Source of the DNA: Lingula anatina
Lineage: Eukaryota; Animalia; Brachiopoda
Direction of reading: 5' to 3'
DNA: 64,000 nucleotides
NCBI GenBank assembly: GCA_051362555.1
Contig: CM120641.1
Coordinates: 8,618,001 to 8,682,000 of the forward strand
In this document: positions 1 through 59,594 of the stretch, in pieces
How the letters are laid out: each line of letters begins with the position of its first letter
Position numbering within the stretch: the stretch's first letter is position 1
Position numbers and translations under genes: made by a program
The notes under the pieces: model-generated
What the model saw: only the letters and a program-made list of their open reading frames with translations
Databases searched by the model: none
What the model was told of the DNA's origin: nothing

Positions 1-732
1 TTGCTGTTTTTCATATTGAAGATATATGGCAATACTTACACATGAATTTCAAGAACAGCTGAACTAATCTTTGACAAATTAAAGAGTGATGAATGAATTT
101 AAATAGCTTATTCTTGTTTATTTGACATAAAATTTTTTAACAAACTGACTTTATCAAAATATACAATTCACTTTGAGTACCTGTGTTGGAACCGTTCAAA
201 ATAAACCTGTGAGATGACTTGAACTATATCATGCTGTGGCTCAAAGATTTATTTAAGATATGTATATTTTAATGTATCCCATTTAACTCTAAAGGGTGAT
301 ATAGCCATTTTCTAATTCAAGTTATGTCCTTGAGTATCATCATTAAACATAATTGAACTACTCAAAAATATTTGACAATTTTTTCAGTAAAAGTGTTATG
401 CCAATGAAAATTTTGATCTTTTCTTTTAAGAAAAATTCAAATAATAATAATATTGTATCAATCTATCTATATAAACATGGGCTTTCCTTAGGAAGATTCA
501 GGTTGCATAACTTTTTTTCACTCAATACACATAAACAATAAAAATGACAATTTGGATGGGTGTTTTTCACATGGAAATGCTGACTGGAATATTCCAGACA
601 GACAAAGTTTAGACCAGTAGAAACACTGATATATATACATAAAAATGGTAATGATTAACTGAATGTGTGTATTGTGCCTTTTTATTATTCTATTTTCCAG
701 ACAATTGAAGGAAGAATTTTTCAGTCAGTGTC

Positions 733-2753
733 ATGCCTAAAGTTAAAAGCAACTTAAAGCTTGCACAGTGCAGGAGAAGCACACAGAGCAATTTTCAAAG
801 AGGCAATACCCCTTTACAAATTGTTAACCATGTCAAAAAAGAATTCGGTCTTAGTGCAAATAAGGATAAAGCTGCTGGAATGAAGAAATACATGAGAAAT
901 AAATTTGAGTTTTATGGGCTTCAGGCAACAGAAAGAAGAACTATAGAAAGACAGGTATTTATTTTTCAGATTGGAGTAATGTGTGTTATATATGCTAAAA
1001 TTAGTGCAGTATGTGCATCAACTGTTTCTTGTTCACAAAAGTCTAAAAGCAGTTAGATTTTCAAAATAACCTTAAAATAAATAACCTGTGCTTTACATTT
1101 ATTTAATTAACCATTTAAAGGATCTTTTAAGAATGTTTCATCCCATTATTATTTGTATCATAAAATATGTACTGGTACAGATGAGAGGTTTTATAGTGGT
1201 GATATTTCTAAAAAAAAAAGGTCTATGAATGCGTCTTGAGCAATTTTTGTCCCCAACCCTGCCTCAATGACAAAGTTAAAGTATGATTTTTGTTATGTAG
1301 GTCATGAAAAATTACCCAAAACTGAATGCATCATGCCTTTGGGAGGTGATGAAGTTAGCTTGGTCACAGGATCGCAGGGAGATGCAATACTTTGCTGTAG
1401 AGTGTGCGATACACAACAAAAACATCCTCAGCACAGACAAAACAACATGTTTAGAGACTGTGGAAAACATAAAAAACTTTCTTGTCAGTGAAAAGAGTTG
1501 GTGGGACACCGTTGATAGCCTAAGTGGTGGTAGGCCATAATTTCACATTGCTAAATATAATTTACTTGAGAAATATTGATGGAAAAGTGAAATCTTACGA
1601 GCCAAGTTATTGTTCACTGAAAATATTTCTTAATATTCTATAAACCAGCCCCATTCAATTGCATCCATTTGGATAATAGACTTCATTGAAGGTAGATTTG
1701 GCAAATTATTGAATTTGTAATATCTTAGAGAAATTTTGGGATTTGAAAAAAAGGTCTTCACCTTCAAAACAGTTCATGTTATCTGTTCATTAATTTACAA
1801 CTTGACAGTGCAATACAGAATTTTTATGGAGCTTTATTTACCCAACTAAAAATGATGCACTTAATTTAGAAATCAATATTAAATTTTTGTTCAAGTTAAA
1901 AATTGTAAAAAAATTGCTGTAGCAATGAGCACTGTTCTATGAGCACTGTTCTATTTTAAATACATCAGATCTTTTCTTAAGTGAGTTTATACCTTTTTCA
2001 GTTGTAGGCTTCTTGGTAAGCAAATACCCTGCAGATCTAATACCAGTGATGGACCAATGGATTGATGATAGCGAAATGTGGCTGCGAAGATCTGCTATAT
2101 TGCATCAGTTGAAATATCGTAAAGAAACGGATGAGGATAGATTATTCAGGTTGTAAAGTTTCACGCGCATTTTGAATAGACACCTATTGAAGTGATAATA
2201 ATGTTAGTTACAGGCACAATGGGCCATGTGCATTGCCACCTCCCCCAGAACTTTAGTGATGCTCTTTTTTCCTGAGAAAATAACTATAACAATTTGCTGA
2301 GTGAAGCAAGAAATTTTATCCTTGTGCACCCCTTTCCCTCGGCAGAGCCCAGTGCCAGTGCTTTAGAAACATTTTTAATTGTCTTAACATTACCTCCTTT
2401 GACAGATTCTCCCTTCATACTGAAAATATTTCTTAAATTGGTTGTTTTTGCAGTTATCTCCAAACAAATGTTAAAAACAAATATGTCTGTGGGCTGATTT
2501 GACTCAACATGATGGTTAATCTTTATTTCGGTAATTTGTGTTTATTTCTTCTTTATTTTATCGTTTCTTTATCAATTTTTACAGGTACTGCTTACAAAGG
2601 GCTCATGAAAAAGAATTCTTCATACAGAAGGCTATGGGCTGGGCATTGAGAACTTACTTCAGCACCAACTCCAGATCCGTCAGAGCTTTCGTCAAGAAGA
2701 ATGAATGTGTTTTGCCAAAACTGACAGTAAAAGAAGCCTTAAAGCATGCCTAA
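733..2753 (+). CDS. alkD: AlkD-family (HEAT-like repeat) DNA alkylation repair glycosylase, 4 coding exons, 255 aa
   Basis: join(733..954,1301..1529,2002..2149,2585..2753) = 768 nt, all introns GT-AG with matching phases. An in-frame TGA at 706 lies upstream of the ATG, and an acceptor at 700 implies an upstream UTR exon. Motifs KAAGMKKYMRNKFEFYG, KSWWDTVD, WLRRSAILHQLKYRKETD and EFFIQKAMGWALRTY match the B. cereus AlkD pattern (KSWWDSVD, WLQRAAILFQLKYK, EFFIQKAIGWVLREY, recalled). Confidence 0.92.
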
Positions 2754-2944
2754 ATTGCATTTTTCATCATAACTGCCCTCACAGTTTTTAAACATTTAAA
2801 AATACTTATGTTACCTTTTAAGCAACTGAATTGTATATAATAACACCAAACTCTACAACTGCTTTCTGTTTGACATATTGAGATATTTTATTAGATTTTA
2901 ATTTTAATGAAAAGGCTCCTATGTCAACGATGGTGTTATTGTAA

Positions 2945-2950
2945 AATAAA
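2945..2950 (+). terminator. candidate polyadenylation signal (AATAAA) of the alkD-like gene
   Basis: AATAAA about 190 nt after the stop codon at 2753. Confidence 0.45.
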
Positions 2951-4937
2951 TATATTTTAAAATAATTATATAATAAGCCAATATTGTGAAGACTTGCATT
3001 GTTGCCAGATTTAGCTTTGTTATTAGAATTGTAATGCAGCAGTTTTATCTGGCTTCTAGCACGTAAGAAAATATAATACGGACGTTACAGACGGCGACCC
3101 ACGCTCGACTAAAACCTTGATTGGTTAGTCGACCTAAAGACCACAGAAAACGACTTAAGAATACCGTACTAGTCCACCGTTTTGAAAAAAAAAACTTTTC
3201 AAAATCAAATTTTATAAAATTGCCATTTCTACCTCATAGAAAATTTTGTTCGCTTTTTTTTTCAAAGAAAACGGTGAAAATCCAGGTAGATAAAAAAATG
3301 ACAAACCACGTGCACTTTCTTCAACGTTTTAAATGCTTATATATCAAAGAAATCGATCTGCCATTGGTCGAAAAATACTGTACAAAAGTTTTGTAATATT
3401 TCTAACAATATAAGGTAAGGTTTCGTTAGGCAACGGAAACGGAGAAAATCGATCTTCGGATCAACACAGGTCTTTATTAATACGGAAAACATGCTTTAGG
3501 TAACCGTAAAATAAATAAGCATGAATAACATGGTATAATCTGTCTGCATGCTTTCCTCATATCCTCCAACAGATTCGCAATATTTAAAGTGTGTAAAAGT
3601 TTGTCCCCACCATAAGTTGTAAAGTTTTGTGTGTTCATCCCCAATAGGCCAATATTCAGTTTTAGAAATGTACATCAAATGTGCTAGAGAAGCCACGGTT
3701 GTGACATTCTCACATCTAGACCACCAGCTAAATACGGCAAGTAAAGTTATTAAAAGATATAACATTACCGCAAATATAAATGTCCATGAAGCTAAACACG
3801 GTGTATACGTCAGAAGCTGCTATCTGCCTTTCTTTGGTGCAAACATAAAAGGAAAAAAGTCTTACAACCCATTTCCATAGATTAGATCGACCTACTTGAG
3901 ATCGACCTAACTCCCTGGGGGTTCACGCTAAATAGCTGTCAGCCGGGCGGACACGAAAGTTAATTACCCCTTTCAGCTTGTAGCAGGCGGGGAAGGACAC
4001 TTAAGGGGGATTATCTGACAGTAATCTAGTGAGACTCCCCGCGGTGATAGATCGATCTAAAGTTGTGGGAATAGACCCTTATATTACCATACACCTTCGT
4101 TAGTTGTGTTGTTTATGAAAGGAGCACGTTCTTTCACCGAAATATTGCAATCCGGCTATTAATGTGTTACACAACGTGCCTCTATCCCGTCTAAATTACA
4201 TTGGAAAATGATAATACAATAACTGGCGTATTCAATGTGTTCAGATCTGTTGACCGATGTACTGGCTTGTTAATCTTTATCCTTTTTAAGAGAAATTAAT
4301 AAAACAAACAAAAGTAACTGAAATAAATAACTACAAGCACATATAAAAAGCTCAGTGCCTATTACGTTGTGATTTGTAGTCCTCTTTCCAGACTTTCTTT
4401 TAATAATAAAGTGTGCAGGGTATTTTGTGTTACAATTTGCAGCCCACATTTTACACTGCATAACATTTTATAATAATAAGAAGAACAAAATTTATTTATT
4501 TATTTATATATAAATAGTCTAAAATCCATATAAAATTTTCAGTAGACTTTACATGGGTAAAATGAACAGAATAAGATGAATAAAGTAAATGAAAAGGTAG
4601 TTAAAATAATAAATTACTCATAAATTATTCCAGTTAAACTTTTGGTCTTCTCGTTATTTAGTGTGTATGCCTTCTCTGTCTCTCTTTATCGCCGCCACGC
4701 CCTATACACCCTCTTTTGTCTTTTTCCTTCCCGTCCCTTCCTCATTCAGGTGTAATATAGTTTATGTATACATGTACAACAACAATTTGGTTAATCTCTA
4801 AAGTGTTTGTTTGTTTTCATACATCATTACTTCACAAATTTCTCAATAAAAAATGACTAAACTGACGGATGAATAATGTCACGATTCAAGAAACAAAGCT
4901 CCAATATTTTTGAGTCACACCTCAAAAATCAACAGAC

Positions 4938-5137: not shown

Positions 5138-8100
5138 ATGTCTCCTAGGACTAAAAACCCATGGGTTTCTGTGGGTGTAGCTCTAATGATGGCTATCAGT
5201 TTAAATTCGATGTCATATACATGGGCTCAGACAAGTACATCGAATACTACAGTATCCTCGGGTTCTGGTGAGGCTTCGTCACCAGATACTTTTCTACAAA
5301 GGCCAATAGATAAAGCAATGGATCCTCTGTATAAGATGACCAACTATTTTCTACAACTGGTTAAAGGAAACACCGGCATCACTGAGTACGTCGACGAGTT
5401 GGAAAGAAGTGGTAAGTCGATATAAAGTTTGTGTAAATCCTCACACCACCACTTGTTAGTTTGGTAGATCTCATTCCTAAAGTTTACAGTAGTGTTCACT
5501 TCACTCAGATGGAACTAGACTGGGATGAAGTGAATTGCGACGGTTTCGTGTAATTTCGATGATCATGAATTCACCTGTTGCATAAAATTAAAGAGTAGGT
5601 GTAAAGTGGTAAAAACTTGTTTCCATATTTCAAACATACCTTAGTTCTGGATTCAGTTTTAATATTATTTGGCCCATAAGACCAATAGTACATATCACCT
5701 CTAGACTCTGCATATATCTTCTTGCTAAACTTGTCACCATATGATTAGATTTATTGTTTTCAAACAAATTTGGCGAAACAGCTAGTTTATCTTTGGTATT
5801 AGCAGAAACTAATGAACATTGTCAAAATCTTCTTGTAACAAAAGCGGCTTCCCCAATGTGAGTTATGCACATATATTTAGATATATAAGTGTGTAATAGT
5901 GGATTAGTACATGTAATTATTGGTTGCATGTATTAACACATTTTATTCATATAAACACAATTAGTGTCCAAAGCCATAAGAACACTAAATGTATATATAT
6001 TGAAATGAACAAGATGCCTGCATGCAGCCTTTTGTGCATCAAACTTTGATTTGTGGCCTGAAAGTGACTACACCATTTGTGACATGTCCTTGCTTTATAA
6101 GATATTTACATAAACAGGAATTTAGCTTAATTAATATTATAGTTATAATCAGTGATTAAAATGTCTGTGGCATATATTCCTATAACCCCCATTAGTCTGA
6201 TTGGTTGTATGTAGATTTCCAAATGAAAAAAAAGAAATCCTGTGTTTGTTCAGCAGAGTTACAAAGTGACAAATGGATTTTTGAACCCAATCCTTCAAAG
6301 GTAACTAAAGTGAAGTTATTTGTTGGAACCTCTTAACTGTGGAATATTTGACTTATTTTAAGGAAAGACTTGAAACCTTTTTAGGGCTATTATATTGGCA
6401 AAAGAATGTTCTGAAGCTATTTATTGTGCAGCAAAGACACATTAACCTCTTAAAGCATGGAGCTTGGTTCTAGGTCAGAAATGTAAGAATACCAACATTC
6501 ATATTAGTTTTCGACATGTGCTTAAATGCATATTTGCTTTTATTCTTTGGATAATATGTTGTTTTACTTCATGCAAAAGAGGAATCATCAAAACATAAAC
6601 ATATCTTTCACATTTCATATTTTTGTATTATTTCTTTATTAATAAACAATTTATCAACAGTAGAAATTGTCTGTGTGCTTAGCAACTGGCTATTTATTTG
6701 CCTTACCATATTTTTATAATTATATAATATGACACACACCTTTTAACAAACTAACTAGAAGAGGTGTGATGATAAATTATAAAGCAGTTGCCCTACAAAC
6801 TATGAATCTACATACAGCATATCTGATCTTGCTTAGGATGACATCATGCATATTTCAAGGAGGCAACCATTTCAATATTTCAATAAAAGTGAAGATCTAC
6901 AACTGCTAACAGTTTGGTTTTTTGAAAGTATTATTTTATCTTAAAATCTGAATACAAATTATTGCTCAGCATGCATCAGTGTATGCATGTAGTGGTCAAA
7001 AATGTAAAGAACTGAGTCATATATCATACAATGTGATACTAACCATATCACAGTTTGCATCCGTAAAGATAAGAAAATAACGTCAGTCCCTTGTGTCATA
7101 ACTCCCAGGAAGTGATTCTCATAAAAAAGGGTAGGATTTCACTGGATTAAAATATTATCCCAACTGTAAGATCCAATTGATGGACATAACAAAAGGATCT
7201 TGTTATTTTATAAATAATTGTCCATTTTTCTCAGTCTCATCTGTCTTCAACCCATCTATGGTGGAGTGTAACATGTTGTGCTAACCGACTAATTTTGACC
7301 TCCTGGCTTGCTCCAAACATGTGTTTTTATTTCAGGAGTTGTAGTTTTAAGGTAACTCAAAAACAATTTGACTTGCCCATAATGAAAAAAAAAATCCATT
7401 TAGGAAAATAAGTCGATTTTGAAGAAACTTAAGGGTGTGCTGTACACATTTAAAGATTTCCCAAATTTATTTTATTTTTTATATAGATCTACAAATCAAG
7501 CAAAGTTACTAATTTTCCTAATAATTATCTAATATGACAGATATAATATTACATAGGTCAGTCATTTGTAATTAAAGAATTAAACTGAAAATGGAATAAA
7601 ACATGGAATACAAGTGCAGGGAGGGCGCGAGCAATGATTTGTGAGTAGTAAAAAAAGTTTCCCCTAAGAAAATTAATTTTGGCGAGTAAATCCTGTATAA
7701 AGTATCCTGTATGTAGAGGTTACGAGTATTCATATCTTGGTGTTTTGTTACCTTGTGATGCAAAAAATATATAAAACAAGTACACCACCTGGGTCTCAAA
7801 TTAAGGTAATTATATCAAAAATATGTTAGTCTGCAGAAGTTTCATGATTTTGATGAATTCAAAGTGACGCTAATTTATTACTCTGTTGAAGGAAACATAT
7901 CTGAGCATATTATGCTATGTTTTTCTGTTCTTTTTGATTTATTGCTTGTCTTGTAAATGTCACAACCAAGTGCCCTTTTGCAAAAGTCAAGTGTTTTTGA
8001 CTTGAGTATCTTAGATGTTTTATTGTTTTTGTCATTTATTTCGTATTCAATTTTAGATGCAAATTAAGGGAAATCTTTTCCCATTCAAAGTGAAGCAATT

Positions 8101-11100
8101 TTTTCATTGTTGTATGGGTACATTGCTCTGCTCCTTATCTAAAAATTCTTTATCAGAATCACACAATTGTTCCATATTGTATAAACAGTGCTTGAAAATT
8201 ATTAAAGGTGAAGATAATCAGAAGACTGTGTGAATTAAGTTCTTGCCTGAAGTAGAAATATTGCTCCCATTAGTCACAGGTTACAACCAGTGATACATGT
8301 ATCCTTCCTTCAACAGAAAGGTCCATGGTAAAAAGGGATATCAAGTTGAGGATAGTTTTAAGCTGACAAAACCATTGTTAAAAGTCCATGCATAAATTCT
8401 TGGTTAGACCTACCCCTTTTCATATATTGAATTACAGCACTGATTGGTTCAAACTGTATATTATTACAATGATACCAGATTCACAAACAAAGGAGGGTTG
8501 AGAAACTGCTGCAGCTTTCGTAGATTGGAATTCCTTACAGTATATTGTTGATACCTGTCTCCTCATTAGCTATTGTTATCTTTAACTGAACTGGGGACTA
8601 ATATAAGTTCAGTCAGCTTTATTGGGTACAATGAGAAATATAGTGCTCACAGGCATACTAGAAATAGTTTGTTAACAATTTGACTTCAGCATCTGAGATA
8701 ATCTTTGCATCGAATTTTTTTCTCCTCTGAGCCTGACTTTATCTAGTCCTATATGTGTCCTGCAAGAAAAGATATTGAAATAACAAAGCTTGGATCTGTG
8801 GACAAAGTATCCCTCAAGCACTTATTTACCATAGCTTAAACCACGGCTAGCGCGTAGAACAAAAGACTCGGCCGTGCTGTATGCGACATACAAGCACGTC
8901 ATGTACGAGTGCGTTCCACGGTCTGTTGCACTACTAGTGTAGTAGCCAATCAGAGGCCGTGGTTTAAGCCAGATACAACACTCGTCGCCGAGCTGTACGT
9001 GAAAATTACTCGTGTATTGTCTCGCCTGCGGCTCGCCAATACACTCGTAATATTTCACGTACAGCTCGGCGACTCGTATTGTATCTATCACATATTGGGG
9101 GATCCACAGGTGTGGTTTTTGTCCCTCTGTGAGTAATTGTCAAGATTGTATTGCTAACTGGGGTTAACTGCGCCCAAGGTCCCAGGCTGACCAGAGAGGA
9201 CTGATACATGAAGGATACATTAAGGAACCCCCTTATGTCCATTATATTGCTCTCACTTCACTCTACCCCCCATCACCTTTTTACTGCCCCTTCTGCCTTG
9301 CTCAATATTCATTGTAGAGCCATACCAAGAATCATACCTTGTTGAGTTTAAAATTTATTTGACATGAAATGGACAGCAAGGTAATGACTGTTTTGTATAT
9401 AATTGCATGCCTTGGTTGGTATGATTACCTTGGGCATGACAGTTATGTGTTTCTTGTAGGAACTATAATACGTCTCTGCTGTTTAGGCTTTAGAAGTGTG
9501 TAATACTTTCTTCATTTGGTTCAGTAGCTAGAGCCCTCATTTCTAAATATTTTAGACTTTTGTTATAGGGTATGTAAATAAAACACAAAACATTGAACAA
9601 AGACCAAGTAAACTAGATTTAGAACATGTAAATCGGGTTTTAATTTATTATGAACCAAGCCCATATGTTGATATGATGGTCATATAATTAGCACCGATGA
9701 AGACATTATTTTGAACAGAAAGGACTGGATTTGCCATTAAAACAAATCATTAGGTTATTAAAAAAATAAAAATCAATTTTCCCCAGCCAGATTTGGTGAC
9801 TAATTGATGAAAAAAATTTATAATGTTTTATAATTTTCTATCATAAGCATGTCTTTCAAAAACAGATCTTTTTTATGCTACCCAAAACCAAGTATGCTGC
9901 AAATGATAAAAGCATATGTGCTCACATGCTTATATATATAGTTTGTGTGTATGTGAGTTCAGATCAATATTTACAAGCATGACATGAAAGAATGAGTCAA
10001 CCTAACAGCTCTCTATGCATTTTTTTACCAATCCAAACATAGTACTGCAGTTAAAATGAGATAAAGGATTTTCCAGACGAAGAAAGAATTATAATAAGAC
10101 ATGTATTATAACTGATGCCAGTCATGGAGAACCATATAATTATTTTTTTTGTTGTGTTCACCCTGTTAAAGCCCATATAATATGGTGTGATAGGTGCATG
10201 TACACTGCTTATCTAATCTGGAGAGGCAGGACCAACTAAGTGTTAATCTATGGCTTCTCTTGCACGTTTTTTTTTATAAATAGACTTATACAGAGTTTAA
10301 TATTCAAAGATGGTGCTATATAATCTTATCATTTAGATAAATGTTATATTTGGATAGGCAATTTGAACTTCAACCGCACTTTAATGGCTTTTGCATGTTG
10401 TCCTCATTTTGCACAACATCTTTTTTGCAGTTACATCTTTGTTTAAGGAGTAGATTGAGCAGTGTAAAACTTTAAAATATTGCCTGGCTCTATTGCATGG
10501 TTATGTTTTGTTCTTTGCTAACAGTCATGCTCCATGCCAGTAACCAACACTGTTCCAGATATCATCTTTATCTTTCTTTTTCTTTTCAATAAGAATAGTT
10601 TAGTCTTTTTCTTGTTTTCAACCATATAATTAGTAGTAACATTGGATAAATGGCCATGGAATTTAAGATATTATAGGAGTTATATGTTAGTGCATATAAT
10701 AACTTAGTAACTGTAATTAAGGCTTCATTCACATGCAATGTCTATTTTCTAAATTCTATTTTCTATTCGCGGTATGTCTTATGATCACGGTCTGTGCCCT
10801 GAATATCCTGCGGTGTAATTACTGGCAGCGCGAGCCAGTTACTATAAGTTACTATAAGTAACTGGCTCGCGCTGCCAGTAATTACGCGGCGGGATATTCA
10901 GGGCACAGACCGTGATCATAAGATACCGCGAATAGAAAATAGATTTTTAGAAAATAGACATTCCATGTGAACGAAGCTTAAGACATTATCACATTTTTGG
11001 ATATATTTCCTTGTCTTTGAAATGAAAAGAATGGAAATGGCTAAAAATGGTAAGAGATATTCTTTGTACAATTTTTTAGACTTGAAAGCTTACATGTAAT

Positions 11101-13295
11101 AACATTTCCAAGTTAAAGTATTAAAGATGTACCTTTGGCAGACCTTTATCTTGGACACTAACACCTGTCAACTGTTACACCCCATGCACATGTAAATTTA
11201 CATGTAAATGGCTAACAGGCCTCATGAACAATAGCCAGAGATTTGTGATTGCAAATGCCAAATTAACAACTCGAACTGCAATCTCTTGATGCTAACATAA
11301 AAACAAGTGGTCGTGAGCATCACATAAAAGAGCATGCACAATTTAACCAGCTTTTGTCTGGGTCGATCACAGGAGTTTTTTCTTGCAGTGCACGTAGGGG
11401 TTTATTTTCTCAACCCCGAACTATTTTTCAATAGGGGAGTGATGTGTTCTCAACATGTATGGAGTGTACCAAGGGTTAGCAAAGAACATAAACGTTTCAC
11501 GGGGTGTATCACCAAGTTGGCTGTCGCTGTTTTTATGTATTTGTGCCATGAAATGAGGGTTTGAGCTGTTAATTTGATGTTAGCAATCACCAACCTAAGT
11601 TGGTTGTTTTCTCTAAAGAACTGACAATTTACAGTCTTGTATAACAGTACACATTCACCATAATCTCTCTCTCTCTTTCATATATTCCAAACAGTTTCCC
11701 ACTTGATGGGAGGAAGCTGTCTGTGGGGTGAAATTTTACTTAATACTGGTGGGCCCTATGGATGGATTTTAACACTAGACTGTGGCATACAGTGCCAGGT
11801 TTTCAACAGGTGATATAAGCAGATGGTGCATATTTATCAAAAGGAATAGAGAAAAGAATTCCCGTTGTAATGACTCTGCTTTATTGAGCCTGGTGTTACT
11901 GAACATAAGATGTGTTATACAATCATATTTCCTATTTGTGTACATTTTGTATAATATGGTTTATAGACATAATAAGGATATATTACTGGATCCAATAGTT
12001 AGATCTTAGATTAAATTAATGTGTACCTACACATTTTTATTGCATGATATAGATTGTACTCGCATTTATGAAGAAATCTGTATGAGGTTGTGGTTCACCT
12101 GCCTGCTTTCTAAAAAAAAAAGAAGTTTTTTTAGATGCCCTGGAGAGTCCCGAAAGTATTCAGATGCTTTCTCTCAGATGAATTATTACCCCTGCTGAGG
12201 GTTTTTTCCCTTCAGTGCAGAAAGGATGTTTCTTTTCAGGTGACTAGGGTTGAACAAAGAACTTTGTGACATTTGATATATAAACAAAATTCATACTACT
12301 CAGATATAAATGAAATACAGAAATTTAAATCAAAAGTTTTTTTTAAAATGGATTGAAGCTCTGCAGATGTCAACACAATTATAAATAAAGATCCCTGGTG
12401 TAAACGTGGCCCTTTTAAAAGAATATAATTATGTAAGTAGGTATAATGTCATATTCAAAGCAAGTATGGTTTTAGTTTGCATAACAGATGGTTCCTACTT
12501 TCATTCTTCTAACCTCATAATAAATTTTTGTGAGAGAAAGTTCATGAGTTGCGTTTGACATTTTGTGCAATTCAAATATAAAATTTAAGAGAATCTTTTC
12601 TTGTTCACAGAAGATTAAAATGATAGGTCATTGTTCATAAGTCTTGTATTCACTAAGAAAACAACATGAAAATAGAAATGTCATGATGTAGAGTGTGAAG
12701 ATGAAATAATAAATTCTAGGTTTTATGTCATGTCATCATGTTAAGTATAAATCTAAAGTTATCTTCTTGTATATGTATACTTGTATCTGTACATTTTTGC
12801 TGGTATATACTGGGGTGCAAGTAACAATAAATATTTGTAACCCTTGGTTAAGTCTTAATGACTCCCAAAGGCTTGCAAAGAATCCATATTTAATGTGGCT
12901 TCTCCTTTCACCTGGAAACATGATGTACTTGGAGGCAAAACCTTACTGGTTCCAGGTACTGAGATTGATTTTTTTTTTGTTGTAATATATATATAAGTAA
13001 AAAAAATGAGAAAAATGTCTGATTTTTTCTTTTTGGCTGCAAAGATTATTTGAAAGAAAAGAAAGGAATAAAATAGAATGATATGACTGCATTTCTAGTA
13101 GTTAAAAAGAGCTCAGCCATAACACTTGCTCAGATTATTTGTAGTGATAGAGGTGAGAGGAAACAGAGATGTTCTTTCTCATTTGTGTATTTGCAAACAT
13201 TGATTTCTGTCCTGTGTTTCATGTCAATTTGGCACCCTGTTAGCTGGGAAGCTGTCAGAATGCATTGCTCACACACATAAAACAAAATATTGGCT

Positions 13296-13364
<69 letters not shown>

Positions 13365-16300
13365 TGTATTTTACTTGCCAGTAACTAAATTTTTATTTTT
13401 TGTAAGAGAAAAGCATATAAATAAGTAAATATAAATTTTGTTTTAAGTAATGGGCTATACCATAGCATTTTCCCACACCAACTTGATTTTCCTTTATAAA
13501 AGTATTTCAAATTATCAAATATTCCGATGGAAAAATGAGGAATCTTATAGAAACTCTTTTACTTTCATGGTGGAAATGAAAGATGCAGCAAGTGCTATGG
13601 AGGAAATATTATGTTACACAGAAATGTACTAGTACACACATGAAGAACAGCCCAAACGAAATGCAATTGATCCTCCTAAACCTTTCGTAAATTACTTGGG
13701 CATTGTGAGACAAAATAAGCCTTACTAGTAAAGTCTTTCCTCTGTGTGCGTGTGTGTGTTTGTTTATATATTTGTGTGATGTGAGTGGTTACCACATATT
13801 AAGCTTAGTTTATTGTAAGGTTAAAGCATGGAAAGGAATTTTTTCAAATCTTTTCAATGATTTAGCTTTCTTTTATAACTATGTGGAACTACTTCCTTGT
13901 TGGTCTGGTTATAGGGCGTCCTAAAATTCCTGTCATGGAACAACTCTGACTGCACTCAATACTGTTTTGAATAAAAACGGTTTTAAGACTTAGTTCAGGA
14001 AGTAGATGTTGAAATCGCAGTTTTCATAAGTGTGTTGTCTTGAATAACCCACTGTAAGTCACTGCCCACCTGCTGACCACTTTCCTAGGGGATTATGTAG
14101 GAATGAGGGACACGAAAACCCTCCTGGAATATGAATCAGTTTTGGTTAAAATAGTGTTGGACACATCTAATATAAACCATTGCAACTTGTGTGTTTTTGT
14201 GATAAGATAAGTAATGCCAGTTATATGATAGTTGCTAAGGATTTGATACCCTGGGTGGGTTCACACACACACAGTAAACGGAATGATTCTTAGCTCTATA
14301 TTTTACATCATTAGTCATAACTGTAATCTTGCTCTATCTGTATATCATGACTTTTGAAATAGCTTCCCATGAATAAAATATACTGCACAATGTTAGTTGC
14401 TTCTGTTACAGCCTGGCTATCCTTACTGTGATCAGCACTAGTATTTTGAATTTCTGTTAGAAAGAGAAGGATCCCCAGTTGTTCTGTCTTATGTGAGTGT
14501 ACCCTGTGATTAATTTTGCTGTGTGCGAAGTTTGTGTGTAGAAGTCAAATCCTCACGTCATCCATCACCTTACTTGTAATAGAACATACTATGCATGGAG
14601 AAGTATTTTCAAAATAGTCACAATAAAGATAATTAAAAGTTCAATAAAGTAAAACATATAAATGAAATATATTCTCTTTTAAGGAGATTGTTTGAAAATA
14701 TGAAAAAGTAGATATTGCTATTAAAGGTATACCATACATTTTTTGCACCAAATTTTTAAAACCATTCCTTGAGAAAAAAGCATTTTTTCCTAAGTACTCA
14801 CCAATCATTACTTGACCTGTGCCTGCACTTGGTTAACTTTGCATATATTGTACCATTTGTAATTAAATAACTTTGTTCTTAATGAATCATGATTCATTTA
14901 AACCACCATGGCCTTCCTAAAATTTCAATATCAAGAGGAAATATCTATGTCAAGTGCTTTTATCCGAGGGTTTTAATAGTTTTTAAGGTCTGAATTGGGA
15001 AAGATAAGTAGCTTTACAGGATGTGTATAGACTTGAAAAATATGACAGAAAAATTGTCTTACACATACAGGTTACCTTTATATGAAAATGTTTTATGCAA
15101 TTTCTTGCTTTTGCTTGTACATGTTCGATTTATGTTATTTTTCATTTTTTTGGTGATTTGTAATTTGCTATATAAAACTGCACTACCGTAGTTATCAGGA
15201 TTGCAAAACAGTTGGGCTTTGCAGGTTTTATATACATGTAAGTGAGACTGAAATTTAAGAAGGAATAACAGACTTAAGTCAAAGTTGACGCTATTTGTTA
15301 CCTTTCAGGTTTAGTTACTATTGGTATTGTCATTATGTGCTTTAATCTGTTTACTTTTTAAAAGGAGTTTGTGTATGTTCAGAGCTGTAGGGTTTTCAGT
15401 GTTAAATTGTAATTTTTAAAAATTTTATGTTATAAACTGGTGAACATTTCTTTTGAATTTGTAAGAATATTTTTCATTGGTATTGTTTTCTCTTGTAAAA
15501 TGTTTTATAACATCATAGTATGATGTTTACTAGTATAGTGATATGGTGGAAAAGCAAATATTTAACCACAGGCTTTGTGGAATATATTGAGGAGTAAAAA
15601 GGTATAAGCCATTTATGTCTTGGTTAGAAGATGCACGCCTATGTCTGGTTTTGTGAGCTTGCAAGCTGTACAGATATGTTTTATAATTGCAATGGGTTAG
15701 TGTTCCTAAAAAAAGGCATATTATTCCAAATGTTATACCATCATGCACAGGACAAATGTCACTGAAAATATACAGAGTAATAAAGTGATAAAATCTGATT
15801 TTCTCCAGATCTTTGCATAGGGTACTGCGAACACCAATCCATCAAATAATCAAGTATATATCCTCAGTAATGTAAGTGATCAAGCTGGCATTTTTCTACA
15901 TGTAACATAAATTAAAAGTTAAAAGGCAGTATTGGGTATATTTTGCGTGTGAGAGAAAGAGAGAGAGATCCTACGAGTACAGGAACTTGTCTTTTAAGAG
16001 GTACGGACTCTGGATGATACTCTTGAGTCAGCACCTAGACAACAGAGGTTCCTTGTTCCTGATGACCTCCATGAAGCATAGAGCCACTACCATGGTATCT
16101 ATGTAGATCATGTCACAGAGGGTAGATAATTGTTATTTGGTTAGGCGGGAATAGTCAAGAATAGAACTTATTTTTAGAATTAATGGATAGGTGTTTTGGT
16201 AAAAATGATTTTTGTAATAACTTGTTATAATGCAGAGCTCAAATTGAAATGGCCTTTTCAAGGAATTAATTATGAAAATACAGAGAATACACGTTTAATA

Positions 16301-18090
16301 ACACGATCATCGAAATTTCACATTACTGTGATATTTTCTTTTTTTGAAAAGTTATCAAAAAGGATATATCGAAAAAGTCTTCCAGTGAAAGGGTGCATTC
16401 AGCTAAGATAGATAAGTGATTTAGGATAACACTGCAGTATTTTGAAATGCTTGATAACACAATCTGTCTATAAACAGTTATCTGGGTTGAGTTTTGGGTA
16501 AACAGTGGTTCTGTTCTGAATAGTCTGATTCTCACAGTTCATCACAGCAGTGGTGGTAAACAGTAAGATATTGGCATGCAGGTTTTGTATCTAATTGTAA
16601 CCCTACTGCTTTCTGCTGACCTTTCTCAGCATCTCTGTGTCTTCAATAATTCACACTCAAGGTATTTGCCTGGTTTTGCTTCCAGTGATATTTATTATTG
16701 AAGGTAATAGTTGCTCAGTGATAATGCACTTACTTGGCATGACCTGGATATAGATTTAGGCTGCAGTTGGAAGGGAAACATGTTTATGTAACTTTTTTTT
16801 TATAATTATTAAAGCCAATATTAAGAATTATATAATTTAACAAAACATAGCTGTTTGTGATTCTTTGTTATTTGGCTTGTGGTTGTTGCTAATTTGTGCT
16901 GTTATGTAAAAGCATATCACATTGATATCTGTTGAATTGGCACTAAGAATTGTTTTTTTGCTGCTGGGTCACTGAAAAGCATTTCCTTTGGACATTTTTC
17001 TGCTAGCCATTTTGAAAGGAATATTTCAGTAAATACACCAACAGGTGTATTTACTGAAATGAATCAAAAGAACAGAGTCTCTCTCATCTGGCTCACACCT
17101 GCCTCTTGTACTGAAACATTCTGAACATCCTCTAGCTTGCATGTGGTCTCTGTATACAAAATGATTTTTTTTTGCCAATTTTGATGAGCAGTTAATTATT
17201 TAAGAAAACTACTGTTGGTGCTCTGATAGGTTTGAGTTCTCCCCCATCCCCCATGACACTTGTGTAAAGGTATATATATGTCAGATATTGTGCTTGTGTT
17301 GGTAAATTAGGTGATATGAGTGCTCGGTTATATTTTTACTATTCCAACAACTTTTAGTTTACCACTAAACAGTTTTTACTTTTCTCAGTATCTTTCGTCA
17401 CTGCTGATGTACATATGATTTTTGTGATATTGCTGAGAACAAATGAAAAATACCTTTTCTTTATGCAGATTAAAGATATAACTAAGTCTAGATTTGATCA
17501 TGTTGGTAATAAGACTGTATATTTGCTTGAAAAGGAACTCTAACATTGAGAAAAAATCATTTTATCATGAAATGAAGTGCCTTGGTGCAATTTTCTTGAC
17601 AAAGTCACAGAACTCTTGCAGTCCTTACAACATTGACAGGTTTATGCTTTTACAATGGTAGCACCTGTTGTGGTGTCATTGAGTGAAAGCAGTTTTCAAG
17701 GCATCTGCATAAAAACTAATGTCTAAGAAAGGCCACCTGTTTAAAAAAGTTTAACCTCTTTTCTTTGGTAAGAATGGTAAGATCTTTGACTATTTAACTC
17801 GCAATCATCTTTCTCTGTATTCATTGACAAGTGATGGTGTTTTTGTCATTGGTATTTTTTTCTAGTTGCCACAAATATTTTTCTTTCATATGGTATGAAA
17901 ACAGTGATTTGTCAAAGAAAATTATAGTGGTTAAAAAGTGGAATTTCTTTGTACTGCTGCATTGATGATGTAGCCAAGTACAATTATTGTACCACTGGTA
18001 GGCAGTTGCCTTTGTTCCTTCAATTCATTTTGTTGACAGGGAAATACATTGTGAAGCTGTTTGTCAGCTATTAGTGTAATGTCATATTAT

Positions 18091-18124
<34 letters not shown>

Positions 18125-21100
18125 GTCAGTGAAGGAGTAAAATGGTTTAATGTCTCTGACAGTAGCCATCAGAAGTATTTTTAGCTTCTCATAGTCTAGT
18201 CAAATCATCTACCTGCATGATAGAAGAGTATTGATTGCCTCTCAAGAGGCAGTAATGAGAAGACATATAATATATATACATATATATTACACACTGTACC
18301 GGCATCATGCAAGTCTGTCATGGCTGCATGCAACTTCAAAAACCTAATGTATATCAGTCATTACACAGCACAATGCTGTGCTATGTGAAAGGTGTATTCT
18401 GCCAAGACAGTCATGAAAACTGCTTATGTCACTTTCTGTAATATGGCTTAAGATATTTGTGTGATCTATTAGGTATAGATACATCATAACATGTATAGAT
18501 TTTGACTCAGATCTAAATTTCTAGCTGGAAATTTATGTGCTTTTTTCTTATAATTATATGATATAATTTTGTTTAGTCAGCTTTCTATTTTATCAATCAC
18601 TAAAGGGAACTTTGTCAAATAACTGATATGATATCATCAGAATGGTGCAGTATGGTTCAGTAAAATAAGACAGAATTTGTTAGTCTCTTAAATTTGTTCA
18701 TTATATAAAATTTCAGGCTTGGAAGTTGTGAAAAGAGACAATCAGACAGACTACTTTGCAACATTACAAAGTTCTGCCTTTATGTTAAGGTTAAGTACAG
18801 AATGGGGTCAGGTAAGAATGTGTTTTTTATTTTTGTCACCAGTTTGATGAATAATAAAATTAATAACCCAATTTTAAGGACAGCTCCCTTTGGTATCAGG
18901 GATGGTTGTTCTTGTAAAGAAGTGCATCAATACTTTCTCATCTAACACATCATGAGGATGGTTATTTTGTAAATGCCAAAAAAGGACATGTTTTTTTTTA
19001 AATATTTATTCTGTTTAAAAATGCCTTGTTTCATTTTTTAACCACTGATTTGTGAATTTTTTGGGTTTCTCTCTATCAAGACAGATGTTTTAATTTTGCA
19101 CTTGTCTGCCGCAGAACTTATGCTGTAATTAGAAGTGATACCAATGGTATCTTATATATATAAGATAATTTCTGGATTTGACAGATGCCATCTCATGATA
19201 AGTTAAAAGATTTTAAAAAATTTTCAGCACAACTGAACATATTCTCATATCTGACAAATCTGTACTTGTTAAAGGAAAGGTAATGTGTTTTTGTCAGTTT
19301 TTAATTGCCATTTTGTGTCATTGTATTAATTGTCATTTCAGACAGTCCAGTGGTTTATTGCCTATACAGTTTGCATAGCAGTTGGTATCCTGTTTATGAT
19401 CATCATGCCTATTGTTGGTTGTTGTGTTTGTTGCTGTCGATGCTGTTGCAAGAAATGTGGTGGAAAAGTAGACCCTATGGAACCAAAGAATGCAAAATGT
19501 CGCCGAGTAGTGTTTGGGCTTGTGCTGGCTGTGATAACCACACTCATGTTGTAAGTAAAATTTGTGTGGACATTTTTTGTATAAAGAGTAATAAAATTTC
19601 ATCATTTGTTAGTTATGATCAGTCACTGTACTTTGGTTGTCAGTTATAGTTTAAACATTCAAATTCAAATTGTTATAGGGTAGAATTGTACCACAAGCGA
19701 ATATTTTCAACTGATCCACTTAACATTTTCTTATGTTAGTCAGACAGGTCATTTTGTTATTAGTTTAGAATTAACTCATTCAAATATTGGAAAAACTGCA
19801 ATTTTATGGCATTCTCTACTTTCCACCTTGATACTACAGGGGAGGAATGGTGTGTGCCTTTGTTACCAATGAACTGATGCAGGAACAAACCAACCATAAC
19901 AACAATGACACAGGACTTCTCAATTCCATCTCAAAAGAAATTGGCAGAATAGACGATTACCTCTCAAACACTCTGACGGTAGGTAGGAAGATGGGTAGAA
20001 GTCCCATTTGCTAATGTGTATTTTTTTTCTTGCTTTATCTGAGTGTCTGCACTTGGCCATGGCAGTTGTGATGAGTTATGAATGGTACTATTGACATGAC
20101 ATCTGTCTACATACCTGTCTGGCTCTTCTAGAAGTATTCTGGCCTCTGTTGTTGGAATCTGTTTGTTTGCTACCCATGTCTTGGCCCCTGTTTCATTAAA
20201 AGAAAAAAACCTCCTCACTGATATTTGGTCAGCATATAGAATTGTTTAAAGCAAGGAAGATAAATATATGTTGTTAATCTGGCTGACCTTGTGTCTTAAG
20301 GATGTTAGGCTTGAAGTCTTATCTGTGCCTGTTTTTATTCACATTTTGAGGCCAGAGTGATAAAGTGATAAAAACTAAATTCTGAAGTCATATGGTCACT
20401 TTATGATTTTATTGGCATATTTTGTGTATTTCAGGAAATAAATACTACTGTTATTAACAGCTATAATGGTGCAAAGGGTAGTGTAATTCGAAAAATAGAA
20501 GGTAATTTATAGTTACTGAAAGCACTGATATATCAGTGATATCATACATTGTTATTACGTGAAAGCCTGGCATTATTGAAAAACTTTCCAATTTCTATAA
20601 GTACATTTTATTTGTAAACAAAGAGAAAATATAATTTGGGATAACTTAAGTATGAATTTGTATTTAAGTAGCTATGTCATTATTTAGCCATAAATGGTAT
20701 TTTAACCAAAGTAAAGATAAAAAAGAAAGAAAAAGAGGGAGAAAACCCCACTCCTCCAAGAAAAAAGGTGTTTATGCAGATGTTAGCCTAGTATAGAGAA
20801 TTGTTCTGCACTGATACTTGTTTTTTTTCCTTTAGATGCTGCTGACTCTGCCCTGGACAAAATTGGAAATGCCACTAATGCATCTGAAGTGATTGTCAAA
20901 GCCAAAGAATTGGCAAAAAGTAAGTGAGAATACTGGAAATGCTAAAATTTGTCACTATTACATAATAATTTTTTTCATGTCTTATTTGAAAAAATAGGTA
21001 AAATGAAGGAGATAAAATTGATGTTATAGTATAAAAAAAATTTACCATTCTTTTTTATCTGATCTTAAAGCAGTAGTTTTGATTGGTTATATATGTGGTT

Positions 21101-24100
21101 ATTGATTTTTTTTGTATTATCATGAAACACTGGCTTGCATATAATAGCTAGACTCATAATTGAGATAGAATTTATTTTGAATTTTATTTATAATAAATGC
21201 AAACCTTTAAATTGTTTTTCTTTGGCATTGAAAAAGATATTAATCATTAAAAAATGTGTAATATGACACCCAGTTCAAAAAAGGTCTCAAATCATTCCAA
21301 GATGCTTTATTGTCAGGTGTGGAAACCTTAGCTGCTAATCTGGAGACTGTGAAAACTAATACAGAGGCTTTAAGTGACCTGACTATCCAACTTGATGGTG
21401 AGCTGGCTGCTGTGAGACAAAACATAAGTGACACCCTAAGTTCCTGTACTGTAGTAGCAGCATGTAATGCCACTGGGAGACAGCTTGATAGTTTACAAAC
21501 AGGAGCAAATTTTACATCTGTAAGTGAAAAAATCTGCCATTAATGTACATTTGTCAACATATATGACTTAATATAAATTCATTGTTTACAGATATTGATA
21601 TTATAACCATTTTTGTAAAATAAATTATGCAGAAAGATAAAGCTTGGTTATAACCAGATTTCCGTTTTGTTTTAATAAAAGGGTGATTGCAGAGATTGAC
21701 ATATTTGTGATATTAAATCCAGGGATTCAGGGAGGGGTGGTGTTGACATGCATTTGAATTGCTTATCATATCCCTGAGTTAATAAATTAATCATGCATGG
21801 TATGGCCTTGATTAATTGATAACTATGTTTGCAGCTTACAACTGATGCCCTTAAGACTATTACGGATGCTCTTAAAGAAGTTGAAAAAGTGCAAAATAAT
21901 AATATATCAGCAAAAGTAGAACAGGTAAATATAACAACATGGTATGACTAACTTGTTAAAGGAACTCATGAAAAAGCATATAAATTTGTTTGAAATAAAA
22001 GATCCTGGGCTCAAACTTTGGTTTTCTATTAAATTTCATTTTGGCTGAAATATATCATTTTGATGAAAAATGTGAAAAAAAAAAAATGATACTTATGCTT
22101 TAACTTCTTTGCTATTGAGCTATTGATGTTGCCCTATACTTGAAAAAGATGGTTTTTACAGCACTTTTACTTTTAGGGAGAACAGGAGTACAAAAACATC
22201 AGTGTCAAAGCAAAAGAACAATTGGACAATGAAATTAATAGTGAGATACTTATGTATTTGTTTGCAACTTATAATGTGTTACCTAGATTGTTTATCTCTT
22301 ATTGCAGTGCTTATTGTTAATTACCCATTAAAACTAATGAACAGCAGAAGAATAATTCATTCTTGTCCTGTATGTTATATAGTGATTTATTTCTTTGGGT
22401 GTAGATTTAAATTTACACATAACTGATACAGATGCATGCTGCTGATGATTCAACATGTGTTCATTGATGAAAAGAGCAAACATGATAATTACATTGAATC
22501 TGTTTGAAGATTATTCTTGATAAAAGGATATCTAACATACAAAATTATTTGCCTTTTCTTTTTTTCAGAGACAAAGGTAGAATTAAAGAAGTTAGATGAA
22601 AAACTTGGTGCAACCTTAGTAGAACTGAGTGCACAAACAAAGGTAATCATTTAAAATAAGGAACATCAGCAGTGATATCAGCAGCTCAGGTGACAGCAAG
22701 GCAGTAAAGAACAATATCTTTATATTTGAAACAACTTACCTAGCCAATGTTGGATACTCCCCACGCAGCTTTTTTAACCCATCTCCTCTAGAACAATTTT
22801 AATTACTTTTTTTTGTGAATAACAAATTTGTATCAAATTTTACTGAAAAGTACATGTGAGGTTAGAAACTTTACATGGTGCTTTATTTTCAAAAGTCTTG
22901 ATGGTTAATCCAAATTTGAATCTACAGGTGGAGAATGAACATTTAGTCACTGAAAATATATAGAATTCTTAACAGTTCATAAAAACAGAAATTGGGTCTA
23001 CATTATTAGTGATGTTTATCACAGGGTTGATTACAAGTATGAGGAATCTGACTGACTGCTTTGGAGCTTTAAGCCCAGCTTCAGTTTAAATGTACATGTA
23101 CCTTGATGTTAACTAAAGATTTTAGTTTTACTAAAACGTAAGGTTATTTTTTCAGACTTTTTCTGGTCCAGTAAATAATGCCAGAAATTCCATCACTAGT
23201 GCCTCTGATGCAATTACTCTGTATGGGAAATATAGGTTTGTGCTGCATTATAGACTGTTAATTAGCATTTTAGATGCAATGCTATAGAAGAAAGTTTTGA
23301 ATACATAAAAAGTATTTTAAGACTGCACTTTTCAGTAGCAGTGTGTGGATTTCTTTATTACAAATTGCAAGTTATATTAACATGTAGATTTTGAGGATGA
23401 GAGAAGTGACTCTTAAAAAATGAGAGATGCCTGCATAAGTAAAATTAATGTTGGTAATTAGGAAATTTGTAAATATATGTAATTAGTACCACCAGCGTGT
23501 ACACTGGCGGTACAAATGGTTTTAGTCCCGACCTGTCTCGTACAGCTCCGCTGGCTGACGTGGGATACAAGTCACTGTTACCACTTCTCCACCTAGACCA
23601 CAAGGACCTGTGTCCCCATCTCTTGGATTTAGGTCACATATAATCTACACTTGAACCCCCTGGTTTTTTGTCTCAGTCGGTGCATTGGCCTGGGCGTTAC
23701 CCGCGTTGAAACGCACCCTTGTCAAAAATTTTGAAAATTCAATGCTAGATATCTCCCTAGATATCTCTTATGTGGAGATTTCAAATATGCCCTTGTATTT
23801 GACCTTATTTCAAAGTCAAACAGACCAAAATTTTCTAATTTTTATTTCAGCTGATTTTTAGAAACTACACAGATCTAACCTTTAATATTATGGGCAGGTG
23901 TTACCCTTAGGGTCATCTTTCATTTTCGTGAGTTTGGGGTCAATCGGTGCATTTTCACGGTAGTAACGACCATTAGTTGCCAAAATTGAAAAAACTTTCA
24001 AATTCTGGAACCGTAAATGCTTGGGCCCTTTTTTTATGTATTTTGTAGAACTTGTCAAGTGCAACACAGGAGGTGGCATCCATTTTTTTGTTTCCGATAC

Positions 24101-59200: not shown

Positions 59201-59594
59201 TGTGTATTTTGAGATACCTGTGGGAGGCATTGCAGTGGTGGCAAAAATTTGATGCATATAGAGGTATTACATGTGGGCATTTAGGTTTTACTTGATCTTT
59301 ATCAAATGTAATTTTTTATTCAATAAGTGAAAAATTTTGAAAAGAATTTTTTTTGTTAAAAAGTATGATCAAGACCTAACAATTCATACCTTAATTGCAA
59401 GTTTTTTCTTTCAGAAAAAAAAAGAAAACGTTTGAATTCAAATAGCTTTACCAAGGAAAAAGCTCATCTTTCATTATATCTTGTATTTTTCCCTTTCAAT
59501 TCCAGCCGCCTGCCAAGCTGGGTGCGGGCCCTCATTCCTAATATCTTTTATATCACTGAAAAAGCATGGAATTTCTACCCTTACACCAGGACAG
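56267..59594 (+). CDS. PITPNC1: cytoplasmic phosphatidylinositol transfer protein 1 (RdgB-beta), first three exons; gene continues beyond the window
   Basis: join(56267..56314,56768..56916,59506..59594): MLLKEYRVCMPLTVEE/YRIGQLYMITKHSHEQSEKGEGVEVVRNEPCEDTNYGTGQYTEKRVYLNS/RLPSWVRALIPNIFYITEKAWNFYPYTRT; not reported by the ORF track. Confidence 0.95.

What the first reader, a model, noticed from the sequence alone, without database searches (positions are those of the whole stretch)
733..2753. Intron-containing animal gene for a bacterial-type AlkD DNA glycosylase with intact catalytic residues
Seen: a clean 4-exon, 255-aa ORF with canonical introns, beside typical animal genes, so bacterial contamination is unlikely. 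Established: AlkD is a non-base-flipping HEAT-like-repeat glycosylase that excises cationic and bulky alkylpurines (e.g. 3mA, 7mG, yatakemycin adducts). It is characterised in bacteria, and I know of no vertebrate, Drosophila or C. elegans ortholog. Residues equivalent to B. cereus Y27, W109, D113, R148, W187 and R190 all appear conserved (KYM, WWDTVD, WLRR, GWALR). Inference: an uncharacterised animal base-excision pathway, from an old intronised horizontal transfer or patchy retention, possibly protecting against microbial or algal alkylating toxins.
Basis: partly seen in the sequence, partly recalled or inferred. Interest (0 to 1): 0.8.

Follow-up and report, generated by a model that had tools for sequence, protein, structure and literature searches.

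The report
Ancient animal AlkD DNA-repair gene
This is a real, spliced and expressed brachiopod (Lingula) gene for an AlkD-type enzyme that likely cuts alkylated bases out of DNA; it was likely inherited from early animals rather than recently taken from bacteria, and this same protein already appears in a published tree of animal AlkD.

Summary
Observation confirmed. Four coding exons give 255 aa, and RNA reads span all three introns. Every exon hits Pfam PF08713. The model matches B. cereus AlkD, with Y27, K29(R), W109, D113, R148, W187 and R190 equivalents kept. The protein is 254/255 identical to Lingula anatina XP_013421605.1. That accession is in the AlkD tree of Hecox-Lea and Mark Welch 2018 (PMC6264785), who already report a metazoan AlkD lineage not identified in vertebrates or ecdysozoans. 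Orthologs occur in sponges, cnidarians, molluscs, annelids, echinoderms, hemichordates and amphioxus. Intron 2 sits at the same codon and phase in a demosponge-like gene, while coral coding regions have no intron. Best reading: present in early animals and lost patchily. Animal monophyly is not rejected (AU p 0.18) but is not shown, and the deeper origin is unresolved. Activity is untested here, and my searches listed no biochemical study of an animal AlkD. Toxin defence is unsupported. The scan found the same kind of gene before in another genome (e1-9526326). Already known; modest interest.

The parts
701..732 (+). 5' UTR part of the first coding exon. It follows a splice acceptor (AG at 699-700). 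An in-frame TGA at 706-708 closes the frame upstream of the ATG.
   Evidence: Sequence; ORF 709..1056 stop to stop; RNA loose ends before 698/700
733..954 (+). Coding exon 1 (aa 1-74): basic low-confidence N-terminal tail (aa 1-23), helix A and the B-helix with Y53/M54/R55 (= B. cereus Y27/M28/K29)
955..1300 (+). Intron 1, 346 nt, GT-AG, phase 0
   Evidence: 44 junction reads in 3 of 4 runs
1301..1529 (+). Coding exon 2 (aa 75-150), with W142/D143/D146 (= W109/D110/D113)
1530..2001 (+). Intron 2, 472 nt, GT-AG, phase 1 in codon 151. Same aligned codon and phase as an intron of the demosponge-like gene in L149.
   Evidence: 87 junction reads in 4 of 4 runs
2002..2149 (+). Coding exon 3 (aa 151-200), with R180/L187/K188 (= R148/L155/K156)
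2150..2584 (+). Intron 3, 435 nt, GT-AG, phase 2
   Evidence: 58 junction reads in 3 of 4 runs
2585..2753 (+). Coding exon 4 (aa 200-255, stop TAA), with K215/W219/R222 (= K183/W187/R190); the K194 position is S226
2754..2778 (+). Short 3' UTR. Molecules pile up at 2777-2778, a possible 3' end; low depth continues to about 3078.
   Evidence: tables 2 and 6

Best explanation
This spliced, expressed Lingula gene encodes an AlkD-family HEAT-like-repeat protein that likely works as a DNA glycosylase cutting positively charged N3/N7-alkylpurines out of DNA, and it was likely inherited from the common ancestor of animals and lost in several lineages. Shown: gene structure, expression, family, predicted fold, conserved active-site residues, purifying selection. 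Inferred from B. cereus AlkD: the concave basic surface binds the backbone; the B-helix (Y53/R55) reads the minor groove; W142 and W219 with the D146-R180 pair assist glycosidic bond cleavage without the base-flipping of other glycosylases; the AP site then passes to the ordinary animal base-excision steps (established pathway knowledge, recalled). Inferred: the animal-specific basic N-terminal tail targets it to the nucleus or helps it bind DNA. The origin before animals (bacterial transfer into the animal stem, or older eukaryotic inheritance) is unresolved.
For: PF08713 on all four exons. phmmer to B. cereus AlkD E 2.6e-34 over aa 31-254. AlphaFold pLDDT 91.5; Foldseek top hits are all AlkD, E about 2e-12, TM 0.78-0.80, while the inactive AlkD2 scores only E 7e-4, TM 0.59. 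The residues shown essential by mutagenesis (W109, D113, R148; PMC1874660 passages) and the B-helix basic residue needed for lesion binding (K29; PMC4433238) are kept. Y53, W142, D143, D146, R180, K215, W219 and R222 are invariant in 24 of 24 rows of A1 (20 animal, Capsaspora, 3 bacteria). Spliced reads. pN/pS 0.18 for run X7 variants (13 synonymous, 10 non-synonymous, none at catalytic sites), and coral core dN/dS 0.08-0.20 in 6 of 6 pairs. Named orthologs from demosponges, homoscleromorphs, a calcarean, cnidarians, molluscs, annelids, echinoderms, hemichordates and amphioxus. All 33 named animal rows form one 93-row clade in FastTree, SH 0.963. Intron 2 is shared with the demosponge-like L149 (L149 groups with Halichondria 99/88). 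A tail of 20 aa or more occurs in 30 of 31 named animal proteins but only 1 of 67 GTDB ORFs.
Against: No activity was measured, and AlkD-like proteins without glycosylase activity exist (AlkD2, AlkF, AlkG). Animal monophyly is not robust: in the 60-row LG+G4 tree the 23 animal rows needed 4 changes and 0 of 200 bootstrap trees joined them; in the C20 quick tree 4 unnamed rows intruded into the animal group (SH-aLRT 91); the AU test only fails to reject (p 0.183). Only 1 of 3 introns was matched in another animal, in one locus with no RNA check; corals have no coding intron. The two variants in runs X1/X3 are both non-synonymous. Lingula lacks a K[KR]x[KR] nuclear-localisation motif.
Confidence: 0.72

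Rival explanations
1. The gene is older than animals: it was inherited from unicellular eukaryote ancestors and never transferred near the animal stem.
For: Homologs in Capsaspora, and Salpingoeca, Dictyostelium, Naegleria, ciliates and green algae in the 2018 OTU list. The second intron of sponge-like L149 (codon 187, phase 0) coincides with the intron of L146, an unidentified GC-rich eukaryote-like contig outside the animal groups.
Against: Capsaspora and the intron-bearing loci L110, L118 and L146 never group with animals with support. L110 and L118 have introns at other positions. The L146 intron is inferred from GT-AG and homology alone. This rival is compatible with the functional part of the best explanation.
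Confidence: 0.4
2. AlkD entered animals by several independent bacterial transfers (for example separately into sponges, cnidarians and bilaterians) and gained introns afterwards.
For: Coral coding regions are intronless (L081-L088). The free ML tree splits animals into several groups. An independent bacterial AlkD in bdelloid rotifers is published.
Against: A sponge-like gene and Lingula share intron position and phase. An MP[KR] start motif occurs in 20 of 31 named animal proteins, from sponges to amphioxus. Monophyly is not rejected and is recovered. No supported bacterial sister was found for any animal subgroup.
Confidence: 0.1
3. Its main role is defence against bulky microbial or algal alkylating toxins (yatakemycin/CC-1065-like adducts), as an NER-independent route.
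For: The shelf residues that contact such adducts in B. cereus AlkD (Y27, M28, W109, D110, L155, W187; PMC8626424 passage) are all kept, as are Q38 and K156. The named carriers are all aquatic. A coral genome also lists the ordinary 3mA glycosylase K03652 (PMC3750612 passage), so AlkD may not simply replace it.
Against: The shelf residues overlap the catalytic and DNA-binding core of any AlkD. Q38, K156 and K194 positions vary among animals, and K194 is Ser here. The same paper reports that AlkD gave much less drug resistance than the dedicated YtkR2/C10R5. No exposure or induction data. I did not show AlkD and MPG in one and the same species.
Confidence: 0.12
4. It is a catalytically dead DNA-binding HEAT-like-repeat protein, like AlkD2, AlkF or AlkG.
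Against: It keeps the B-helix (helix 44-53 in the model) that AlkD2 lacks, and all catalytic residues. The A1 profile scores AlkD at E about 4e-77 and AlkD2 at E about 0.007.
Confidence: 0.06

Closest known systems
Lingula anatina XP_013421605.1 (LOC106181691) in the metazoan AlkD lineage of Hecox-Lea and Mark Welch 2018 (PMC6264785)
   Same: 254 of 255 residues identical. The accession is in the paper's AlkD OTU table. The paper states a sporadic metazoan ortholog, not identified in vertebrates or ecdysozoans.
   Different: One residue (190). In the passages and the supplement part I read, the paper uses it only as a tree tip, with no gene structure, residue analysis, expression or activity.
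Bacillus cereus AlkD (PDB 3BVS, 3JX7, 5CL3, 5UUF; Pfam PF08713)
   Same: Fold (TM 0.78-0.80, 34% identity), B-helix, and the W109/D113/R148/W187/R190 equivalents.
   Different: Spliceosomal introns; a basic, predicted-disordered N-terminal tail of about 25 aa; a 7-residue insertion before the WWD motif; K194 replaced by Ser; activity unmeasured.
Adineta vaga (bdelloid rotifer) AlkD
   Same: An AlkD in an animal genome, expressed.
   Different: Reported as a separate bacterial acquisition, distinct from the metazoan lineage to which the Lingula protein is assigned.
Streptococcus mutans AlkD2 (PDB 4X8Q)
   Same: Same superfamily and solenoid fold.
   Different: AlkD2 lacks the B-helix and glycosylase activity; it matches the model only weakly.

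Membership tests
AlkD (HLR alkylpurine DNA glycosylase, PF08713) | Match to the PF08713 profile over its length | tested here: met
   four exons cover profile positions 1-212 of 213 in order, each above the cut-off
AlkD (HLR alkylpurine DNA glycosylase, PF08713) | HEAT-like-repeat solenoid superposing on B. cereus AlkD | tested here: met
   (predicted model; TM 0.78-0.80, rmsd 1.8-2.5)
AlkD (HLR alkylpurine DNA glycosylase, PF08713) | Catalytic W109, D113, R148, W187 | tested here: met
   W142, D146, R180, W219 (chain numbers minus 4 match the numbering); invariant in 24 of 24 rows
AlkD (HLR alkylpurine DNA glycosylase, PF08713) | B-helix with Y27 and a basic residue at K29 (separates AlkD from inactive AlkD2) | tested here: met
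   Helix 44-53; Y53 and R55; definition from PMC4433238
AlkD (HLR alkylpurine DNA glycosylase, PF08713) | Excision of 3mA/7mG from DNA; rescue of tag alkA cells | not testable with these tools
   Needs a bench assay
Metazoan AlkD lineage (PMC6264785) | Groups with other animal AlkD in one clade | tested here: inconclusive
   One clade (SH 0.963); a group with 4 unnamed intruders; not recovered, though Lingula sits with 8 other bilaterians at 94/86; AU p 0.183
Metazoan AlkD lineage (PMC6264785) | Identity with the sequence the paper placed there | tested here: met
   Same accession, 254/255 identical. The tree figure itself could not be seen; only the text, legend and OTU list were read.
Recent bacterium-to-animal transfer | Closest relatives bacterial, narrow animal distribution | tested here: not met
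   Top named hits are animals of many phyla; the best GTDB matches are weaker
AlkD2 / AlkF / AlkG (inactive HLR proteins) | Loss of the B-helix or of catalytic residues | tested here: not met

The most novel reading that the evidence does not exclude
Most animal phyla other than vertebrates and ecdysozoans keep a second, non-flipping alkylation-repair glycosylase that removes bulky minor-groove adducts without NER. In many species it is made in two forms from alternative start codons, one nuclear (basic tail) and one mitochondrial (the extra 20-30 aa upstream in-frame leaders seen in corals, amphioxus, Halichondria and Gigantopelta). That would give animal mitochondria a repair route for bulky adducts that vertebrates lost. 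Lingula itself has no such leader on this transcript (stop at 706-708), and the leaders were not run through a targeting predictor.
Probability: 0.12. Interest if true: 0.65.

Novelty: already known. Interest (0 to 1): 0.27.

Why it matters
It is a reminder that the ancestral animal repair kit likely held a glycosylase family missing from the model animals, so repair inventories based on human, fly and worm undercount it. The existence and distribution are in print. What remains open and easy to test is whether the animal enzyme is active, what it removes, where in the cell it works and how it divides labour with MPG/AAG. The shared sponge-brachiopod intron, the intronless coral genes and the animal-specific tail are small additions.

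Tried and rejected
No whole genome is held for this window, so MPG/AAG presence, copy number and the upstream 5' exon could not be checked. Contamination was rejected on spliced reads and on eukaryotic neighbours: 7 of 140 scanned ORFs hit Pfam, namely prominin x4, PSMD12 x2 and PITP x1. Recent transfer into brachiopods was rejected on distribution. The careful C20 tree on 96 rows did not finish in two runs; only its quick tree is cited. The bootstrap of the 60-row tree had not settled. Rows left out: proteins under 200 aa, cluster members P0260-262 and P0264-300, and 6 of 80 GTDB loci without an extracted ORF; searches used hand-picked subsets of 96 and 60 rows. The animal group in the AU test holds 4 unnamed rows that I assigned by eye (two from earlier trees, two from their sequence and locus), which weakens the test. 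The run search listed no RNA holder by index; the runs laid came by species label. A search for short exon-sized ORFs gave 11 hits among 16 candidates and only indirect hints of intron 2 (P0310; also the insertion in P0115). A 20-nt 5' loose end was not found in the window. Paper searches listed no biochemical study of an animal AlkD; subscription journals are mostly outside the library. One search (methyltransferase-linked alkylation) gave nothing that I used. No complex prediction was run.

Full report
Observation. Exons 733-954, 1301-1529, 2002-2149 and 2585-2753 are separated by GT-AG introns of 346, 472 and 435 nt in phases 0, 1 and 2, and give 255 aa. Each exon separately matches PF08713 above the curated cut-off and in profile order. 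Four RNA runs were laid on 1-3400. Junction reads for the three introns number 14/36/13 in X1, 23/46/43 in X3, 7/1/2 in X7 and 0/4/0 in X4. In X1, X3 and X4 first mates lie only on the minus strand, as expected for a plus-strand RNA in most stranded libraries. Of 140 long ORFs scanned elsewhere in the window, 7 hit Pfam: prominin, PSMD12 and a phosphatidylinositol transfer protein. A multi-exon plus-strand transcript running from about 5.4 kb through the first prominin exons is spliced. This is animal DNA.

Identity. Exon 2 retrieved one protein, P0001, Lingula anatina LOC106181691, accession XP_013421605.1. It differs from the window's translation at one residue; a second Lingula record, XP_013395644.1, differs at 8 and may be an allele or a recent copy. 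No genome is held, so copy number is open.

Family and mechanism. phmmer against PDB sequences gives B. cereus AlkD at E 2.6e-34 over residues 31-254. The AlphaFold model from a 24-row alignment has mean pLDDT 91.5, with residues 1-23 low. Foldseek ranks AlkD entries first (TM 0.78-0.80) and the inactive AlkD2 far lower (TM 0.59) (profile search). In the alignment, subtracting 4 from the chain numbers reproduces the numbering used in the papers. It maps Y27/M28/K29 to Y53/M54/R55, Q38 to Q64, W109/D110/D113 to W142/D143/D146, R148 to R180, L155/K156 to L187/K188, W187/R190 to W219/R222 and K194 to S226. PMC1874660 (passages) reports that W109A, D113N and R148A abolish activity. PMC4433238 (part 2 of 4 and passages) reports that the B-helix and K29 are needed for lesion recognition and are what inactive AlkD2 lacks. 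Y53, W142, D143, D146, R180, K215, W219 and R222 are invariant in 24 of 24 aligned rows. Variants in run X7 give 13 synonymous and 10 non-synonymous changes (pN/pS 0.18, none catalytic). The two variants in X1/X3 are both non-synonymous. Four coral loci give core dN/dS of 0.08-0.20 in all six pairs. I infer an active alkylpurine glycosylase that feeds base-excision repair; activity was not measured. The residues that contact yatakemycin-type adducts (PMC8626424 passage) are largely kept, but they overlap the general core, so they do not single out toxin defence.

The tail. Thirty of 31 named animal proteins carry 20 or more residues ahead of the AlkD core, against 1 of 67 GTDB ORFs (one animal protein and 7 of 74 ORFs had no anchor motif and were not counted). 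Twenty have an MP[KR] motif in the tail and 15 have a K[KR]x[KR] motif; Lingula has the first but not the second. Basic disordered tails are common on eukaryotic base-excision enzymes (recalled), so nuclear targeting or DNA binding is my inference. Several corals, two amphioxus, Halichondria and Gigantopelta have a further in-frame leader of about 20-30 aa. By eye it resembles a mitochondrial presequence, but it was not tested and may reflect longest-ORF annotation. In Lingula a TGA at 706-708 excludes such a leader on this transcript.

Distribution and origin. The full-length search found 1135 proteins at E <= 1e-10 and listed 120. The named animals among these and among looked-up representatives span demosponges, homoscleromorphs, Sycon, Nematostella, corals, molluscs, annelids, echinoderms, hemichordates and amphioxus; none was a vertebrate or ecdysozoan. 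Capsaspora also has a homolog. The trees disagree on depth. FastTree on 333 rows puts all 33 named animal rows in one 93-row clade (SH 0.963) with no named bacterium inside. The C20 quick tree on 96 rows gives a 43-row group (SH-aLRT 91) with 4 unnamed intruders (the careful run did not finish). LG+G4 on 60 rows supports demosponges (96/96), homoscleromorphs (100/92), cnidarians (96/89) and nine bilaterians including Lingula (94/86). It does not join these groups, and none of 200 bootstrap trees did. Holding the 23 animal rows together costs 22.5 log-likelihood units, p-AU 0.183: not rejected, not shown.

Introns. A metagenome scan with a coral ortholog returned 75 loci. Eight coral-type loci match full length in one piece. 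Two of them, L084 and L088, are 7.3 and 12.8 kb with only 0.12 and 0.10 ORF cover, so coral coding regions are intronless in genomic DNA. L149, from a 143-kb contig with fragmented eukaryote-like neighbours, groups with Halichondria (99/88) and has two GT-AG introns. The first lies in the codon aligned to Lingula V151, in phase 1, exactly as Lingula intron 2. My rough arithmetic (3 x 2 introns over about 690 nt) puts a chance match near 1%, more if splice-site preference is counted. Its second intron (codon 187, phase 0) coincides with that of L146, an unidentified GC-rich eukaryote-like contig outside the animal groups, which hints at pre-animal ancestry. L110 and L118 have introns elsewhere. 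These introns are inferred from homology and GT-AG ends, without RNA. L149 lacks Lingula introns 1 and 3.

What is known. [quoted passage not shown] Their table lists XP_013421605.1, the protein studied here. Eukaryotic homologs in Entamoeba and Dictyostelium were noted in 2007. A coral annotation lists the ordinary 3mA glycosylase K03652 (PMC3750612 passage); the Hydra review passages had nothing relevant. My searches listed no biochemical study of an animal AlkD, within a library that lacks most subscription papers.

Verdict. Real, expressed, a member of the AlkD family on every feature testable here, and already in print as a metazoan AlkD. Most likely present in the animal ancestor and lost patchily; the deeper origin is unresolved and the function is inferred. 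Interest 0.27.

Noticed in passing
window 5105-43756 (+): Prominin gene: Pfam hits at 19330-19551, 21262-21540, 24761-24982 and 43553-43756. Spliced reads join an exon ending near 5410 to 18716 across a 13.3-kb intron and continue through the prominin exons.
   Followed up: partly
window 50938-54446 (-) and 59369-59599 (+): Exons of a PSMD12 (RPN5) gene and of a phosphatidylinositol transfer protein gene.
   Followed up: no
window about 3860-4060: A stretch with high RNA depth on both strands and many different loose ends, as expected of a dispersed repeat transcribed in many other mRNAs.
   Followed up: no
window 698-700: Two different 5' loose-end consensus sequences join at or near this acceptor, suggesting alternative upstream non-coding exons; one was searched for and is not in the window.
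   Followed up: partly
window 1-400: Low RNA depth in runs X4 and X7 upstream of the gene, inside the inferred 5' UTR intron.
   Followed up: no
L081-L088: Coral AlkD coding regions are single uninterrupted ORFs in genomic DNA: intron loss, retrocopy replacement or an ancestral state.
   Followed up: partly
L149 6121-6344 and L146 411-476: The same intron position and phase (Lingula codon 187, phase 0) in a sponge-like gene and in an unidentified non-animal-looking eukaryote contig.
   Followed up: partly
P0039, P0082, P0263, P0071, P0010, P0011, P0023, P0017: In-frame leaders of about 20-30 aa ahead of the conserved basic start, possibly mitochondrial presequences; not tested.
   Followed up: no
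P0170, P0186, P0154: Longer unnamed homologs: P0170 has an N-terminal part that looks like a Nudix hydrolase (motif recalled, not scanned); P0186 and P0154 have long basic N-terminal extensions and group near a Parachlamydiales locus.
   Followed up: no
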